Below are positions 16,907 to 59,614 of a DNA stretch of 64,000 nucleotides, in pieces. How positions within the stretch are numbered: the first letter of the stretch is position 1; every line of letters starts with the position of its first letter. The stretch covers positions 6,758,001 to 6,822,000 of the forward strand of contig OX597828.1 of NCBI GenBank assembly GCA_951406725.2, given 5' to 3'. Made by a program: the position numbers and the translations under genes. The stretch comes from Octopus vulgaris (lineage: Eukaryota). Below the pieces are notes generated by a model. It searched no databases. It was given only the letters and a program-made list of their open reading frames with translations, and was not told the origin of the DNA.

Positions 16907-16911
<5 letters not shown>

Positions 16912-17189
16912 TATCAAAAGGGTAATCAGAAATATTAGAAATTTCCATTACCAGTGGCCTAGCGTGTAAAAATCTAAGGTGTACCTGCTGAAGAAGACCT
17001 CGCCTACCAAATTATTTTATTTGCTAAAAAAAAAGTCTGAAACCATTGTCCAGGAGTTAGATGATAAATGTTTTTTTTTATTTTTCATTCCCTTTAAAAT
17101 TTTATCCCTAATAATGGTTTGGAATTTAACTGTTCTCTCTAGCGTGCAAGGAATCCTATGATGGATGCCTCTTATGTGTTTAAAAGTAC

Positions 17190-17192
<3 letters not shown>
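16907..17192 (+). mobile_element. Hammerhead-bearing short element between (TA)n tracts (Penelope pLTR-like)
   Basis: Non-repetitive 285-bp block with TA repeats on both sides; contains the hammerhead at 16984-17054. Confidence 0.6.
16984..17054 (+). ncRNA. Type I minimal hammerhead ribozyme, canonical core
   Basis: Stem I cctg/cagg; CTGAAGA; stem II agac/gtct; GAAA; stem III AC-catt-GT; GUC site with predicted cleavage after 17050. Confidence 0.75.
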
Positions 17193-17249
<57 letters not shown>

Positions 17250-18542: not shown

Positions 18543-19828
18543 TATTTTATTTATTTTTTTATTAAAGCTACATGGTCGATAATTATTTACAGAAGCGAGT
18601 AATATTTTGTAGCTTCTAGTTGAAGAGACCGAAGTCTAGAGATGGGTAAAGATCGGTCGGTGGTGCAGGGAAATGGAAACAGAGAGAAAAGCAGTTATAA
18701 AATGTGAGCGCGGGTATATATTTGCGAGTGGGTCAGTAGAATGGGCAACAGCAGGCGGTGGTGAAAAGGTAAGTAGATATAGCAATACTGTGAGATGATG
18801 GGTTGAAAAGGTAGATATAGAGATTGATTTTACTTATAAACATTCGCACACACAACAAAGTGAACTGAAACCAAAAGATTTATGAAGCTTCGTCAAATTT
18901 ACGATGCCATTTCTGTGACTTATAATCATTATTTAAGCAAGTATTGACTGTAAAGTGTTAAGTCCCAGAATCGATGCAGTGTAGGTGACAGGGTACGAAC
19001 CATATACCCTTTGGCTAGTAATTCAATAATTTTATCGACTTAGCCAGCTGTGATTTTCTAATAAATTATATACTGAACGGAAAATTCAAAACACGTAAAT
19101 TCGTACAACTACCGAGAGCGTTCTGTTGCTTGCCTTTGGCAAGACTCTTAACTCATCATCTATACTGCAAAATTACTTCAGTTCTTGTGGCTATTTTATA
19201 AATTAAAAATACAAAAATAGCAAAATAAAATAAAGTAAAATCATTAATCATAGAAAGTATTGAATTATCTCGGCTCTCATCAATCTGTGCAAGGATGCAA
19301 TGAAGCCAGTGAAATACAATAATGATTACAGCGATATTAACTGAATAAATCGAATTATTTTTCCATTACTTAGCTCTGGTAATTTTCTGACATTTCACAC
19401 GCGAGTGTTCTGGAAACAATAATGTGTTAACCTTTCCGTTGTTGCTGCATTACTTGGTAAATACACGCCGTGCTAATGGGATCGTCTTTAATAACGCCTG
19501 TGGAGTTTCCAAAGGCACATTTGACCTTTAAAAATAGGTATATTTCGGTAGATATAAAATACACTCAAATGCACATAAACACACACATACATATTATACA
19601 TACATATATACATGTATATATATACATATATATAAATATATATTTATAAGTACAGAGTGAGAGAAAAAGAGAGAGATGTTTATGTATGCAAATATATACA
19701 TATATGTATGTGTGCATATATATATATAAGTATATATGTGTATATGTATATGTTAATCTATATATGTGTGTATGTGTTTGTGTATGTGTGTGTGAGTACT
19801 TTATTAAAAAGCAGCAAAAATATCACAA

Positions 19829-19872
19829 AAACTGTTACTCGGAGTTTCACGTTCCCGTTCGTCGGACAGTTT
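19829..19872 (-). ncRNA. Type I minimal hammerhead ribozyme, U4C core variant
   Basis: Minus strand: aaactgt CCGACGA acg-ggaa-cgt GAAA ctc-c-gag TA acagttt. Stem I 7 bp, GNRA-capped stem II, GUA site. Confidence 0.75.
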
Positions 19873-19912
19873 ATGTTTAGAATATATATATATATGTTTG
19901 TGTGTCTTTATG

Positions 19913-19974
<62 letters not shown>

Positions 19975-19978
19975 AATA

Positions 19979-21046
19979 CATATATACATGTGTGTGTGTG
20001 TGTGAACTTCTGGCCTCGACATTGCACTCATAACTTATTGGTCAGCTTGAGGTGCTATGTTGTTAGGAAATAAACCTCTTTCTCATATATTAATGATTGT
20101 GTATACAGACGCCTCCATCAGAACAAATATGCACATACTAGCGCCTACACACATACTTGCAGAAACACTCACACATGTGCTCACACATATCCAAATACAC
20201 ATGAACATATATATATATAAATTTATGTCAATATTTGTTTGGACGTATTGAACGAAGCTTGCTTTCCAATTGTAATAACTATGGGAAAATCATGAATGTC
20301 ATAAGCACCAATCCTATATTTCTTTGACATTAAATTGTGCCGATGAATATAAATCATTTATTGGTAATTAAGATGAATGCCATCCCCCTCACCTATCTTG
20401 CAACTGTAGTTAACATATTCATTGTTCATTGTGTAATTAAGATGTGTATTGCCCCCTACGGCTTGTATTCCAACACGCATCTCTAAAGCAAACAAGAAGC
20501 CTCTTTGCGCTCACTCAACCTGGAAGAAATAGTACTCAAGCCTCCCAAAAATCACATATCGTCACCGTATTAAATAAGGTAAGCCTTCTTAAAATGATGC
20601 AGTTCTTCTTGCATATACATATATGCAAACGGAATATTCTTAGTTGTGATGTTTTTACATGAGATCGTACAGAACTGAGCATGGTGCTAAAACTTTCAAC
20701 AGCAACAACAGGCTTGAATATTACGTTTTATACATGTGGAAGTGCATGGTTTAGTAGTTGTGGTGTTGGACTCATGATCGTAAGATTGCGGCTTCGATTT
20801 CCGGACTAGGCGCTGCGCTGTTTTCTTGAGCACAATAATTCATTTCGTGTTACTCCAAACTACTTAGTTGGCAAAATTGAATAATCTGCGAAATATATGC
20901 TCCACGGAAACCGGCCTTATGAGGCTATACGAGTAAAGAAAGATCACTATCCCCTCTCTTTCTCTCCCCCCCCTCTCTCTCTTCTCCCTCTCTCTTCTTC
21001 TCCCTGTCACATATAGACTTACATATGCATACACAAGCGCATGCGT

Positions 21047-21141
<95 letters not shown>

Positions 21142-21291
21142 TACATATATACATGTGTGTGTGTGTGTGAACTTCTGGCCTCGACATTGCACTCATAACT
21201 TATTGGTCAGCTTGAGGTGGTATGTTGTTAGGAAATAAACCTCTTTCTCATATATTAATGATTGTGTATACAGACGCCTCCACCAGAACAA
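19979..21291 (+). repeat. Local direct duplication of about 150 bp (19979-20126 and ~21144-21291)
   Basis: gaacttctggcctcgacattgc...cagacgcctcca.cagaacaa occurs twice with two substitutions. Confidence 0.9.
20737..20925 (+). mobile_element. SINE family D, diverged
   Basis: Homologous to 18301-18542. Confidence 0.7.
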
Positions 21292-25290: not shown

Positions 25291-25422
25291 CGTACTAACA
25301 ATTCTGCCGGCTCACTCGTCAGGCATCTGGAGATAGATCAACAACAGATGAGACGAATTCAAGAAGTCTTGCGTATGTGAAGCCACTTTTGGTCGACTCA
25401 GCTCAGGCGGTAGTATTGGTCT

Positions 25423-25959
25423 TAGAAAATCAGAAACCATATTTAAGGGCGTATTATTGAGAGTATGGATGATGCAATCACTGTTGGACAGGCACTTGTT
25501 TACATATTCAGTCTTGGCCTCATTGAGGTAAAGACCTACACAATTTGAGGCTTGTTCGAGAGATTGTAAAAGAGACTGCGCATTGGAGAGAGAATCACTG
25601 ATAAGAGCGATGTCGTCAGCAAAGTCAGTGTCTGTCAAGTACTCTCTCGTGGAAGCGTCATCCAACCAAAATGCAAATATATGGGAAACTACCACCTGTG
25701 TCATCTCTTGTGAAAGGTAGGAGAGTCCAGTTTGCTGGACATTGTTGTAGAGATGAAAACGAGGCAATTTCTACTCTTCTCCTCTGGAAGTCATCTACTC
25801 GCGATACCAGAGGGCGCACACTCTCCTACCCTGATGTAATCTCCAGGGATACAGGCATCCAGCAACAGGACCTCCGTAATGCCATGATGGACCGTGAAGT
25901 CTGGCGTAGCATGGTAAATTCCATTGTCTTGACCACGGTTGAACAATGATGATGATGAT
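25423..25959 (+). mobile_element. RTE-clade LINE, 5'-truncated with 5' inversion
   Basis: RT segment LTDTDFADDIAL..VGLYLNEAKTEY..VSDF on the minus strand (25423-~25665). C-terminus IYGKLPP..RRVQFAGHCCR..DREVWR on the plus strand, then a (TGA)n tail. TSD-like tattggtct/tattgatct. Confidence 0.85.
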
Positions 25960-32427: not shown

Positions 32428-32620
32428 TATCTATACAATATGTTACATTACTCGGTAGTCAAGATAAAACTCTGAGTTTCAGATGCCGAAGTGAAATCCA
32501 CAACACCATCTCTTCGGTTATCTGGCCAGATAACCGAAGAGATGGTGTTGTGGATTTCCACTTCGGCATCTGAAACTCAGAGTTTTATCTGACTACCGAG
32601 TAATGTAACATATTGTATAG

Positions 32621-32623
<3 letters not shown>
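32428..32623. repeat. Spacer-less palindrome of about 196 bp, each arm holding a hammerhead-like motif
   Basis: Centre tgg|cca at 32525/32526; the arms differ only by two 1-nt indels. Confidence 0.95.
32527..32591 (+). ncRNA. Type I hammerhead-like motif, U4C variant; mirror copy on the minus strand at 32462-32523
   Basis: cagataa CCGAAGA gatg...catc t GAAA ctc-a-gag TT ttatctg; GUU site. Confidence 0.6.
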
Positions 32624-32653
<30 letters not shown>

Positions 32654-54658: not shown

Positions 54659-56410
54659 TAGTTTTATTTTTATAGCATGCTTTCACTTCACTACCGAGCG
54701 CAGCTCTGTGTGCCTTGGGTATGTGCTGTGATTTGTTGTGATGCTCTGATGGTTATTGTATGGAAAGTGTTCTGCGTAGGATGTGTGCAGTGCCTAGTAG
54801 TGCAATTTTCTGTATGTTATATGTGTTTGTAAGTCCTGGTGTTTTTGTTATGTATTTGTCTGAATATTTTTTTATCATGCCTAATGCACCTACTATGATA
54901 GGAATTGTTTCTGTTTTCAGATTCCACATTCTAGTTACCTCTATTTCCAGGTCTTTGTATTTTGAGAGTCTCTCCATTTCTTTTAGAGACACGTTGTCAT
55001 CTGCCGGTATTGATACATCAATTAGAAAGCATTTTTTTTCTTCATGATATCTGACAACTATATCTGGTCTGTTGGCCTTAATTTCTCTATCTGTGTGTAT
55101 CGGCATATCCCAGAGTATGGTTGCTTTCTCGTTTTCTGTGATCTTTTCTGGTGTGTGCCTATACCATCTTTTTTCTGTTGTTATTCCATAATGTTGGCAT
55201 AGCTTCCAATGTATGTAGGTTCCAACTCTGTCATGTCTGTGAATATATTCCTTCTTAGCCAGGACTGGGCAGCTAGAGATAATATGATTTATTGTTTCTT
55301 GTCCATCTCCACATATTCTGCAGTTACTTGTTTCTTTTCATTACATGTTTTTGGTAATTTCTGGTGGGGAGGCTTTGGTCTTGTGCTGCAATTAAAAATC
55401 CCTCTGTTTCTGCTTTGAGTCCTGAGCTTCTCAACCATTGCTGGGATTTTTCTTTGTCTATTTCTTTTGCGTTTAGTTCAGTGCAGTATTTACCATGAAG
55501 GGGCTTTTCTTGCCATCGTTTTATCATGGTTCGTTGCTGTTCTATTTTTAGTTTGGATTTCATTTGTTTTATAGCTTTTGTTGTTTCTTCATCATCTTCT
55601 TCTTCTTCTTCTTCATGTTTATTAGGTGGTATGATTTCTTGTTTGTATTTGTCAGCTTCCTTAAATACTGAGAACAGTTTTTTGTTTTGCTCGTGTTTTG
55701 CCGCTATCTGGATCAGTTTTCCTTCCTTCTGAAGTAGATATTTTTGCAGTCCTATGGTGGTTATTTTATAGTAGTTTTCCAGCTGTATAAGGCCTCTACC
55801 ACCTTCTATACGTTGTATATATATAGTCTTTCTATGTCAGATTTTGGGTGATGCATCCTAGATCCTGTCATTATTTTTCTTGTTTTCCTATCTATTTTGG
55901 ACAGTTCATTTCGTGTCCAGTTAAGGATATTGTAGCTGTAACTTATAACTGGGACAGCTAAAGTGTTGATACCTATTATATTGTTTTTAGCATTGAGCTC
56001 TGTTTTTAGTATTGATCTAACTCGTCTATAATATTCTTTTTTTATTTTCTCTTTCATTTGTGTGTGTTGTGTCTTATCTAGTTCATGGATTCCTAAGTAT
56101 TTGTAAGTTTGGCTTTGGTCTAATTCATTTATTTCATTGGTTTTATCTAGTGTGATGTTGTTACTCTTAACTAGTTTTCCTCTTTTCATGGTTACTTTGG
56201 CGCATTTTTCTAATCCAAATTTCATATCTATTTCTTTGGTAAATCCATGAACTGTCTGTAATAGTGTTTCCAGCTGTTTGTCATTTGCAGCGTATAGTTT
56301 TAGGTCATCCATATATAAAAGGTGGCTGATCGTTTTGCCGTAGCATTTATATCCGCATCCAGTTCTATTTAGCATATCAGATAGAGGTGACAGTGCCAAG
56401 CAGAAAAGGA

Positions 56411-56411
<1 letters not shown>
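54656..56411 (-). mobile_element. R4/Dong-clade non-LTR retrotransposon, 5'-truncated, inserted in (TAA)n
   Basis: RT HLLYMDDLKLY, FGLEKCA, YKYLGI; AAQDQSLPTRNY; RHD; RLE ILWDMPIHTD..NRPDIV..IDVSIP..KYKDL. Pure (TTA)n on both flanks; frameshifts present. Confidence 0.93.
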
Positions 56412-57372: not shown

Positions 57373-58396
57373 AGAGATGGAGCACGTATTCATCGCTCTT
57401 ATATGATGCTGCCTGACCGTCGTGCTTAGTCCCGAATTTTATCGAGCCAAAACATGGCACAGACATATGCAATTCTATTATTGCACAGACATATGCAATT
57501 CCATTAGGGACCGAAATAACTAAGAGTCACGAGACTTAAATAAAACATTCCAAAATTCAGTTGATTACCTATTGTTGACAAAGATTCATGCAAACTAAAC
57601 TATTCTCTTCATAATCTTGAGAAAGATTTAACTTTTTCTTTCCAGCAGGATAAGCGACCATGTAGAATGCCTTCCTATGTATACGTTTATAATTGATTTT
57701 TTTTTCTGATTGCATACACCTATGATACAAGGCATTCCAGCCTTGACTATTTCATCATCTCAGACACATCTCAAACTGTACTAAGTTATCCAATTTCTTA
57801 TATCTCTCTTATAGATACGGTAAGGTATGATTTTAGAGACAAGCTGCTTCTATTTCCAGCACGTTGAGTGATCTAGTTTCTATGGAAAATTAAAATAGAA
57901 TTTCAAGATATGTCTAAATTGGTTTATATGAAATATTTCGCCCTTTAAAACTCTCTAAAAAAATTCTTCAAATAATGGAAAAGAGAGGTTGTTTTATATT
58001 ATTGAAGGAATTATATGTTAAAACAGTTGAATTACTTGGGTATTATTGAATCTAAATCGAAATAAATTCCGTAGGCTTTTCTATGCCGTGTTTATTTCTG
58101 TTTGCTTTCTCGTCTGTTTTTATATAACTTCTTCCAGCTTATGGCAAGATTTACCTATCTTATACATACAAGCATTCAAAATGTGTGTGTGCGTGTGTAT
58201 GTGTGATTATGTGAATGTATGTTGTGTGTGTGTGTGTAGTATTTCTTTATACGCGTATATAAAATATAAAGAAATATAGTAATATGTTATATTAGAATAT
58301 AAAATCACAAATTCTCATAAAAAGCATGTAGCACTTCACGACTTTATTTGGCAATGCAGGAAACTCCCGATGGAGTAATACGTTTATATATATATA

Positions 58397-58544
58397 TATA
58401 AACAACTTATAAATAAGGGCAAAAGAAAAAATTTCTTATGCCAAATATGCCGAAACTAGACACATTGTCCATAACCATATTTGGTTAATGCCATATTTGG
58501 CATTAGAAATTTTTTCTTTTGCCCTTATTTATAAGTTGTTTATA
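58397..58544. repeat. Inverted repeat with 53-bp arms and 42-bp spacer, next to a TA tract
   Basis: tataaacaacttataaataagggcaaaag...ccaaatatg / catatttgg...cttttgcccttatttataagttgtttata, one mismatch. Confidence 0.9.
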
Positions 58545-59614
58545 AATTTAACCTTTAAAGGTATTTTTTAATATGCTGGTCATTGATAAAAAGTTTTTCG
58601 AAAAATTTTATCCTATATTAGATGTATATATATATATTGTTAAAGAAGACAACAATCGTTAAGGCAAGGCAAACATCTCAAGCCATATACATTGTTATTG
58701 GGGAAAAAATTCAGTCTTACAGCTGTTTCTGAGACACCCCAGTGTATGAGATATTCCGTCGTCGGAGACAAATAGGGAAAATGAGAAGGGCATAGATTAA
58801 TGAAATGGCGACATAGACGACAGGAGAAAGGGGAAACGGAGATGAAGAAAGAGAAGAAAAAAGATGCATAAATGTTCACAGTTCAACTTTCCAATTGAGT
58901 AGAAGTAAGTCCGTACGTCTTTAGGTGCAATCATGCATAAATCCATGTAGGATATTTACACTATCTGGACTTTAAATTTTTTCCCCGCCAATAATAATAA
59001 TGTATATGACATGAGATGTTTGCCTTGCCTCTTTAATAATTATATACTCGTTATATCGGAAATCTGCAATGGCTCCATAACTACCGTCTCGACTACAACC
59101 TTGGAGACCAAAAAATCCGTTACAACACTTACCTAGCGTACCCAGTCGTTTAGATCACCTGTGAATTAAATCCCATATTTTGTATGTGTATGTGTGTGTA
59201 TGTGTGTGTGAGTGTGTGTATGGCTAAAAAATGATATAAAAAAGCAAAATACAGAGACAGGTGAGGGTGCAAGAAACAAGATGTTACTTTCATGCGCAAG
59301 AAAAATGAAAGAAGACTGCCGTTTCGCGCCTGCGCTCTTCTTAAGAAAGGAATAAGGAAAGAAAACAGGTGGAGAGGGAAAAATGAAGAGGAAAATTCGT
59401 GTCTGGATTAGCGGTTGCACATATTGAATTGACCGGAAAGAAGTGAGTGATTGGAGACGTGGGTAGTAAGGAAGACAACTGACTTGACTACTGTGTGTGC
59501 CCTAGTATGTGTGCAAGGAAAATGTGTGAGAGTGTGCATGTATATGCTGTAGGGGCATAATAGTGTATTTGGTGTGGCTAATGAGTTAAACGATGTAGAG
59601 GTGTATGGGTGGCT

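What the first reader, a model, noticed from the sequence alone, without database searches (positions are those of the whole stretch)
19796..19881. 44-nt minimal hammerhead with U4C core in an 85-bp microsatellite-embedded element
Minus strand aaactgt-CCGACGA-acgGGAAcgt-GAAA-ctcCgag-TA-acagttt has perfect stems, a GNRA loop and a GUA site. The same CCGA core variant and the ctcNgag stem III recur in the sequence-unrelated element at 32.5 kb, suggesting a tolerated lineage-specific variant rather than decay. The element is little more than the ribozyme.
Basis: partly seen in the sequence, partly recalled or inferred. Interest (0 to 1): 0.7.

Follow-up and report, generated by a model that had tools for sequence, protein, structure and literature searches.

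The report
Retrotransposon hammerhead with altered core letter
An 87-base piece of a very abundant animal repeat carries a hammerhead-shaped RNA motif with one unusual letter in its catalytic core; it is likely the tail of a Penelope-like jumping gene, the odd letter is likely inherited from the source element, and its self-cutting is predicted to be slow but has not been tested.

Summary
The motif is real. 19872-19829 (-) is a 44-nt type I hammerhead fold with C at core position 4, 7-bp stem I, 3-bp GNRA stem II, palindromic ACUC-N-GAGU stem III and a GUA site. A strict descriptor finds 3 motifs in the window, all C4, and none in 300 shuffles. A model trained on 23 U4 relatives scores it 34.7 bits. 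It belongs to a high-copy family held in four organisms; within the covered positions, variation falls on loop III and distal stem I, not the core. Architecture, (TA)n target, two 3' ends and a tail hairpin point to the 5'-truncated 3' end of a Hydra-clade Penelope-like element. Stem III predicts dimer-only folding. C4 frequency among copies could not be read, because one search did not cover position 4; indirect evidence favours an inherited state. It is not lineage-wide: a U4 element sits at 16.9 kb, and published Octopus Hydra-1 has U4. U4C is a known natural, slower viroid variant; I found no report of it in animal retroelements. Activity is untested.

The parts
19797..19883 (-). Whole copy (87 bp): likely the 5'-truncated 3' end of a Hydra-type Penelope-like retroelement, short-tail form
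   Evidence: 3301, 2995 and 2531 contigs of three DNA runs lie on it; alignments start at 19797 next to (TA)n and break up at 19871/2 into heterogeneous U-rich upstream sequence, some continuing to about 19883
19829..19872 (-). Type I hammerhead motif, 44 nt
19866..19872 (-). Stem I 5' strand (pairs with 19835-19829)
   Evidence: Sequence
19859..19865 (-). Core C3-C4-G5-A6-C7-G8-A9; C4 = 19864 replaces consensus U4 and makes a CpG
   Evidence: Sequence
19849..19858 (-). Stem II (3 bp) with GGAA tetraloop
   Evidence: Sequence; listed variants here are 5.5% or less of depth in DNA runs, highest at CpG sites
19837..19848 (-). GAA plus palindromic stem III ACUC-N-GAGU; centre base 19841 is free
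   Evidence: 19841 differs from the window in 84, 76, 76 and 49% of depth in four runs; G12-A15.1 show no listed variant; predicted 8-bp intermolecular helix III in a dimer
19835..19836 (-). Predicted cleavage site, 3' of A17 in GUA (between 19836 and 19835)
   Evidence: Hammerhead geometry; not tested
19797..19828 (-). 3' tail after the ribozyme; this copy stops at the short terminus, other copies carry about 30 more bases with a bulged hairpin
   Evidence: loose ends before 19797 (41, 67, 41 contigs) and before 19799 (44, 43, 41 contigs)
19882..19986 (.). (AT)n microsatellite on the element's 5' side
19585..19796 (.). Mixed (TA)n/(TG)n microsatellite on the element's 3' side
32428..32625 (.). 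Second, sequence-unrelated C4 element: head-to-head inverted pair of type I hammerheads (32527-32591 +, 32523-32462 -), both CCGAAGA, between TA tracts
   Evidence: the arms differ by two indels yet share C4; the same inverted layout is seen in U4 relative L054
16907..17194 (+). Third element between (TA)n tracts with a canonical U4 type I hammerhead (C3 = 16988, site after 17050); counter-example to a genome-wide C4
   Evidence: 4-bp stem I plus internal loop plus 6 bp (16972-77 with 17057-62, read by eye); decayed stem III; U4 chance rate 0.013 per shuffled window

Best explanation
The stretch is an 87-bp copy of a high-copy repeat, lodged between TA/AC microsatellites, whose minus strand carries a type I hammerhead motif with C instead of U at core position 4; it is likely the 5'-truncated 3' end of a Hydra-clade Penelope-like retrotransposon, C4 was likely inherited from the source element, and the ribozyme is predicted to cut slowly and only as a dimer or with help from the element's protein. 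Shown: the motif, its family, its two 3' ends, and conservation of the covered core positions. Inferred, from the Penelope literature: the element's RT/GIY-YIG protein nicks AT-rich DNA and starts reverse transcription at one of two sites below the ribozyme (short end 19797, or about 30 nt further), then stops early, here about 11 nt above stem I. The palindromic stem III lets two copies in a tandem or inverted transcript form a double hammerhead. Because insertion uses uncut RNA and the cut site lies 38 nt inside the copied 3' end, a slowed core would cost the family little, so C4 could become fixed in a source element and be amplified. This lone copy would itself be nearly inert.
For: Descriptor 3 hits versus 0 in 300 shuffles. 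Model score 34.7 bits, inside the 30.5-56.8 range of 18 hits in 16 held-out U4 loci and above all 45 C4 pattern matches (best 27.8). Hydra-clade HHR table: same layout, 5 of 26 Hydra rows with actc-N-gagt, (TA)n targets (PMC8557442 File S1/S2). 10 of 21 examined structured U4 look-alikes lie 100-340 nt below a Hydra-type endonuclease C-terminal motif. 14 of 78 U4 matches versus 0 of 45 C4 matches carry a bulged tail hairpin 39-105 nt after the site, and the long-tail form of this family shows the same hairpin about 44 nt after the site (loose end, read by eye). Two 3' ends match the two RT start sites and 30-40-bp 'tail' of Penelope-like elements; HHR-dead mutants still insert in vitro and the HHR is protein-assisted (PMC11167929). 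Family variation spares the covered core and is highest at the free loop III base. Dimer hammerhead -21.0 versus monomer -4.5 kcal/mol. For inherited C4: two unrelated families; both arms at 32.5 kb although they differ by indels; C4 is a CpG state and family CpGs decay at 1-5% in DNA runs, i.e. towards U4, while most non-CpG core sites vary under 1%; no clipping dip at bin 19862-65 in run X5 (+0.1% versus +9.6% and +2.4% at known variable places). U4C retains enough activity in vivo for viroid infectivity (PMC3088659).
Against: Position 4 lies outside the 19820-19860 range that one search listed, so C4 frequency is not measured. The clipping test is ambiguous in X7 (+2.1) and X6 (+1.4), uninformative in X15 (controls +0.8, +0.3), and assumes how the aligner clips. 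The window copy is a minority type at 19841, so C4 may mark only a subfamily. No RT or endonuclease sequence of this family was seen; clade assignment rests on RNA architecture and tail. All 34 rows of the published HHR table are U4, and 22 of 78 U4 but 0 of 45 C4 metagenome matches were structured, so C4 is rare elsewhere, as expected of a harmful change. Deep mutagenesis found low activity for all single mutants of the CUGA turn region in a type III hammerhead (PMC9901934). With C4 the dimer's MFE is an alternative pairing 1 kcal/mol below the hammerhead; with U4 the hammerhead is the MFE. The tail-hairpin pattern was written after seeing the sequences.
Confidence: 0.55

Rival explanations
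1. The family consensus is canonical U4, and C4 is a private mutation of this copy or of a small subfamily; the 32.5-kb case is a coincidence.
For: C4 frequency not measured (range). The window copy is a minority type at 19841. U4 elements exist in the same window and in the published Octopus Hydra-1. Small depth dips at 19862-65 in X7 and X6.
Against: It needs the same U-to-C change in two unrelated families, against the CpG decay direction, with every other core base intact; background variation at non-CpG core sites is mostly under 1%. Both 32.5-kb arms carry it. No dip in X5.
Confidence: 0.18
2. C4 is fixed in the family but the RNA no longer cuts; the fold is kept as a docking or folding signal for the element's protein next to the RT start sites, or simply hitchhikes.
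For: HHR-dead mutants insert normally in vitro and no RNA-seq reads ended at the cut site in the anole element. CUGA-turn mutants show low activity. Naiad elements proliferate without canonical HHRs.
Against: G8, A9, G12-A15.1, U16.1 and a non-G residue 17 stay conserved across the family in DNA runs while loop III varies, which is the pattern of catalytic constraint; U4C is a naturally occurring active variant.
Confidence: 0.17
3. It is a complete, tiny non-autonomous element (retrozyme- or SINE-like) consisting of little more than the ribozyme, mobilised in trans by a Penelope-type protein.
For: Family alignments break at 19871/2, right at the stem I boundary, in all four runs; the 32.5-kb pair and L054 also turn round just above stem I.
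Against: Copies continue upstream in U-rich sequence (median loose length 34-156 nt at 19871/2), matching the U-rich flank in the consensus for PLE HHRs. No tandem array of such units here.
Confidence: 0.08
4. A chance arrangement of short stems in AT-rich DNA.
For: Monomer fold is no better than shuffles (z 0.59); no Rfam hit.
Against: 0 in 300 shuffles, E 2e-8 against an independent model, thousands of related contigs with hammerhead-shaped conservation.
Confidence: 0.02

Closest known systems
[quoted passage not shown] 2021, PMC8557442; seen: passages, section 11, supplement parts 2 and 53 and searches)
   Same: 4-7-bp stem I, short stem II with tetraloop, UGAA, ACUC-N-GAGU palindrome, position close to the 3' end, (TA)n insertion, inverted truncated copies, optional 30-40-bp tail; Hydra-2_aJap and Hydra-2_aMil are near look-alikes.
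   Different: All 26 Hydra rows have U4; here C4. No ORF of this family was seen. The motif matches none of the published consensus sequences by the short words searched, including Octopus Hydra-1.
Minimal and small-helix-III hammerheads of metazoan PLEs (Cervera and de la Pena 2014, PMC4209133; seen: parts 1-2 of 4 of the text and a search of supplement file 2, file 1 not searchable)
   Same: Palindromic, unstable helix III, predicted dimer activity, mostly solo truncated copies, some in opposite-strand pairs.
   Different: A true min-HHR lacks helix III and has a long helix II with G10.1-C11.1. The only core variant they report is U3-A8; CCGA occurred twice in file 2, never as a core, but their descriptor fixed the core.
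U4C viroid hammerhead variant (Ambros and Flores 1998, not held; seen only as cited in PMC3088659)
   Same: Same substitution; described as much slower in vitro yet sufficient in vivo.
   Different: There a variant of a viroid ribozyme with stable helices; here a dimer-type retroelement ribozyme with C4 likely fixed in multi-copy genomic families. That U4C is the only tolerated change at position 4 is recalled, not read.
Non-LTR retrozymes of animals (PMC7229834, passages; bioRxiv 10.64898/2026.07.22.740005, part 1 of 5)
   Same: Non-coding, type I hammerhead, Penelope-related.
   Different: Retrozymes are tandem units of a few hundred bases; this is a single 87-bp copy with a PLE-type tail.

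Membership tests
Type I hammerhead ribozyme | Three-way junction with stem I open-ended and stem II closed | tested here: met
Type I hammerhead ribozyme | Core C3 U4 G5 A6 N7 G8 A9 | tested here: not met
   C at position 4 (19864); the other six fit. Filed as a variant because U4C is a described natural exception
Type I hammerhead ribozyme | G12 A13 A14 A15.1 and U16.1-H17 site | tested here: met
   GAAA and GUA; conserved across the family in DNA runs
Type I hammerhead ribozyme | Stem III stable in one molecule | tested here: not met
   3 bp plus triloop; monomer probability 0.001; 8-bp helix predicted in a dimer
Type I hammerhead ribozyme | Loop I/loop II tertiary contact | not tested
   The copy is cut about 11 nt above stem I; no model built
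Type I hammerhead ribozyme | Self-cleavage | not testable with these tools
   No assay; contigs cannot show RNA ends
Rfam hammerhead families | Match to a curated covariance model | tested here: not met
   No hit; also 0 of 20 U4 relatives, so not discriminating
min-HHR of Cervera and de la Pena 2014 | No helix III, long helix II, G10.1-C11.1 | tested here: not met
   Palindromic helix III present, helix II 3 bp, A-U (or C-G in the other register) at its base; fits their small-palindromic-helix-III variant instead
Hydra-clade Penelope-like element | ORF with RT and C-terminal GIY-YIG endonuclease lacking CCHH | not testable with these tools
   No genome held; none at this locus. Present upstream of 10 of 21 examined structured U4 look-alikes by short motif only
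Hydra-clade Penelope-like element | Hammerhead near the 3' end with short stem II and palindromic stem III | tested here: met
Hydra-clade Penelope-like element | Insertion into (TA)n | tested here: met
   Flanks and family loose ends at 19797
Penelope-like element | Optional 30-40-bp 3' tail and variable 5' truncation | tested here: met
   Two 3' ends about 30 nt apart and heterogeneous 5' continuations; could also be two subfamilies
Penelope-like element | Tandem or inverted pseudo-LTR arrangement | tested here: inconclusive
   Solo here; inverted pair in the other C4 family at 32.5 kb; 3 contigs with opposite-strand joints at 19871/2
Non-LTR retrozyme | Tandem units each with a hammerhead | tested here: not met
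   Single copy in the window; genome-wide arrangement unknown

The most novel reading that the evidence does not exclude
At least two unrelated, multi-copy Penelope-like (Hydra-type) families, one of them shared by several related animal species, have amplified with U4C fixed in the hammerhead core: a natural, attenuated, dimer- or protein-dependent ribozyme class that CUGA-based surveys cannot see, coexisting with U4 families in the same genome and so offering a natural experiment on whether cleavage matters for Penelope transposition.
Probability: 0.55. Interest if true: 0.6.

Novelty: new variant of a known kind. Interest (0 to 1): 0.42.

Why it matters
The role of the hammerhead in Penelope-like elements is an open question: in vitro it is weak, protein-assisted and dispensable for insertion (PMC11167929, PMC4209133). 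Successful families with a fixed core substitution would show how little cleavage is needed, and matched C4 and U4 families in one genome make this testable. Published searches fixed CUGANGA in their descriptors, so such families would be scored as lacking a ribozyme and hammerhead counts in invertebrates would be too low. If C4 proves to be private to a few copies, this is an ordinary truncated retroelement end.

Tried and rejected
No whole genome is held, so no genome-wide CCGA/CTGA count. Read laying (4 of 24 listed runs) listed variants only at 19820-19860, apparently 31 or more letters from the stretch ends, so the missing row at 19864 is no evidence either way. No RNA holder was listed on record; run X15 is only guessed to be RNA, so expression is open. 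Family-specific patterns found 0 matches in metagenome, viral and prokaryote collections. A general U4/C4 pattern gave 8 viral matches, none structured. Rfam: only microsatellite-driven miRNA noise. The CCGACGA candidate at 58769-58714 was rejected: 4-bp stem I, inside a MITE-like element, no model hit. Short words of both C4 elements were absent from the supplements of PMC8557442 and PMC13282606; the O. vulgaris repeat library is on Zenodo and could not be seen. Lunse et al. 2017 (about PLE hammerhead variants) and Ambros and Flores 1998 are not held; the former may already list C4 variants. Literature searches with no report of C4 in animal retroelement hammerheads: (open-licence library only). 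ADAR editing of the antisense arm as the origin of C4 was considered and dropped: no clustered A-to-G changes accompany it. A rough floor of about 1,900 copies from summed depth is not used as evidence, since the tool warns that depth is no copy number. Earlier scan notes held nothing on this genome or sequence.

Full report
1. Observation. Mapped to hammerhead numbering: 7-bp Watson-Crick stem I; C3 C4 G5 A6 C7 G8 A9 at 19865-19859; 3-bp stem II closed by GGAA; G12-A15.1 at 19848-19845; palindromic ACUC-C-GAGU; A17 at 19836. A strict descriptor (stem I of 6 or more WC pairs, stems II and III of 3 or more) finds 3 motifs in the window, this one and the two arms at 32.5 kb, all with C4; 300 dinucleotide shuffles gave 0 hits for any of four position-4 letters. 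The monomer does not fold as a hammerhead by prediction (MFE is another fold, z 0.59; hammerhead -4.5 kcal/mol, probability 0.001), whereas two copies give a double hammerhead of -21.0 kcal/mol, 1 kcal/mol above the dimer MFE. Rfam has no hit but also misses 20 of 20 U4 relatives.

2. It is a family. No genome is held. The 101-bp stretch is held in 23 of 24 listed runs from 10 studies and four coded organisms, on only 7 sampled words. I laid 4 of them: 3301, 2995 and 2531 contigs in DNA runs of three organisms, 133 in a run guessed to be RNA. The host looks octopus-like (microsatellite load, a Dong/R4-type remnant, a SINE motif that I recall); no call names it. Alignments begin at 19797 beside (TA)n (41, 67, 41 contigs) or continue about 30 nt further from 19799 (44, 43, 41 contigs), and break up at 19871/2 into heterogeneous, U-rich upstream sequence. 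In the range listed (19820-19860), large differences from the window sit at the centre of loop III (19841: 84, 76, 76, 49%) and in distal stem I (19831: 6-68%; 19833: 24% and 19830: 11% in X7). G8 varies 1-3% (a CpG), and A9, G12-A15.1 have no listed variant. U16.1 varies 0.2-1.1% in DNA runs but 13% in X15. This is the pattern expected of a dimer-type hammerhead whose only free stem III base is the centre.

3. Which kind of element. The HHR table of Craig et al. 2021 shows the same layout for Hydra-clade Penelope-like elements (5 of 26 Hydra rows have actc-N-gagt), nearly all with (TA)n preference. A pattern allowing U or C at position 4 gave 123 matches in 121 metagenome loci (scan stopped at 20 of 64 parts): 22 of 78 U4 matches and 0 of 45 C4 matches have stems I and II (several share a sample or contig, and one, L038, is probably chance). 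Of the 22, I examined 21; 10 lie 100-340 nt below a Hydra-type endonuclease C-terminal motif (16 of all 40 loci given). 23 U4 motifs chosen by eye from these loci show stem covariation (54 cells changed on both sides versus 18.5 in shuffles, though they were selected for pairing). A model built on them scores the window motif 34.7 bits, within the 30.5-56.8 range of 16 held-out U4 loci and above all 45 C4 matches (best 27.8). The 32.5-kb arms score only 17.2 and 16.5, since their stem II is long. 14 of 78 U4 matches and 0 of 45 C4 matches carry a bulged hairpin 39-105 nt below the site (2 of 8 pairs with two-sided changes in 13 of them); the long-tail form of the window's family shows the same hairpin about 44 nt below the site with an A-U outer pair (read by eye; the pattern was written after seeing it). 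Two 3' ends match the two RT start sites and optional 30-40-bp tail of Penelope-like elements (PMC11167929). I conclude that this is likely a 5'-truncated 3' end of a Hydra-type element; its ORF was not seen.

4. Is C4 inherited or decay? Not measured: one search lists no place within 30 letters of the stretch ends, and 19864 is among them. Indirect evidence for inheritance: two unrelated families share it; both 32.5-kb arms carry it though they differ by two indels, so it likely predates insertion; it creates a CpG, and CpGs of this family decay at 1-5% in DNA runs, which pushes towards U4; in run X5 the depth shows no clipping dip at 19862-65 (+0.1% of peak) while places known to differ show +9.6 and +2.4%. 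Against: X7 (+2.1) and X6 (+1.4) are ambiguous and X15 uninformative; the window copy is a minority type at 19841. I put inheritance at about 0.75. It is not lineage-wide: a relaxed descriptor finds a U4 hammerhead in a third TA-embedded element at 16907-17194, and Octopus Hydra-1 has U4.

5. Mechanism. Inferred from the Penelope literature: the element's protein nicks AT-rich DNA, starts reverse transcription below the ribozyme, and often stops early. The cut site lies 38 nt inside the copied 3' end, so inserted copies come from uncut (or circular) RNA; in the anole element HHR-dead mutants insert normally and cleavage needs the protein. U4 helps hold the U-turn through a contact with the A6-N7 phosphate. 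U4C slows a viroid ribozyme but leaves it sufficient in vivo; in a mutational scan all single changes in this region gave low activity; and C4 adds a competing pairing in the predicted dimer. The most likely picture is a slowed, dimer- or protein-dependent ribozyme tolerated in source elements, with the rest of the core still under constraint. Rivals: U4 consensus with private C4 (0.18), fixed but dead fold (0.17), stand-alone mini element (0.08), chance (0.02).

6. Novelty. Hammerheads in Penelope-like elements are known, and U4C is known from a viroid; earlier notes of this scan report it as a minority variant in phage hammerheads (unchecked). All 34 rows are U4, and ten literature searches showed no C4 family in animals, but Lunse et al. 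2017 could not be read and published descriptors fixed CUGA. Verdict: new variant of a known kind, interest 0.42; 0.6 if fixation in multi-copy families is confirmed.

Papers seen: PMC4209133 (parts 1-2 of 4, supplement file 2 search), PMC8557442 (passages, section 11, supplement parts 2, 53 and searches), PMC3088659 (passages, section 8), PMC11167929, PMC9901934, PMC7229834, PMC6765202, PMC6962438, PMC2837043, PMC3376415 (passages), PMC13282606 (part 1 of 3, passages, supplement search), bioRxiv 10.64898/2026.07.22.740005 (part 1 of 5).

Noticed in passing
window 16907-17194 (+): A further TA-embedded element with a canonical U4 type I hammerhead, extended stem I with an internal loop, long A-rich loop II and a decayed stem III palindrome; it ends in an AAAGTAC tail resembling that of the 19.8-kb element.
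   Followed up: partly
L045, L054, L056, L064, L069, L078, L080, L086, L093, L106, L126, L127, L128 (39-70 nt below the hammerhead): A conserved bulged hairpin (RCUC, 3-6-bp upper stem, UU bulge, GAGCAC) in the 3' tail of Hydra-type elements, also visible in published Hydra consensus ends; it may be the RT start or endonuclease recognition signal. No Rfam family matched it.
   Followed up: partly
window 32523-32527 and L054:390-396: Inversion junctions of head-to-head copies fall only 2-3 nt above stem I in two unrelated families, and three contigs of the 19.8-kb family switch strand at 19871/2; stem I may promote RT stalling or fold-back.
   Followed up: no
window 54753-56411 (-): Broken non-LTR retrotransposon with RT (Pfam RVT_1), zinc knuckle and a restriction-like endonuclease-type C-terminus; Dong/R4-like by recall.
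   Followed up: partly
window 58660-59030 and 58396-58545: Two MITE-like elements with terminal inverted repeats between TA tracts; the first contains the rejected CCGACGA hammerhead candidate.
   Followed up: partly
window 19931-20126 and 21096-21291: 196-bp local duplication (98% identical) starting in the (AT)n tract next to the element.
   Followed up: no
L122 and L123 (one contig, about 2.46 kb apart): Two identical U4 hammerheads, each below an endonuclease C-terminal motif: probably a tandem Hydra-type element of full unit length.
   Followed up: no
window 25312-25770 (-): Short RT fragment (RVT_1, below the curated cut-off), RTE-like by recall.
   Followed up: no
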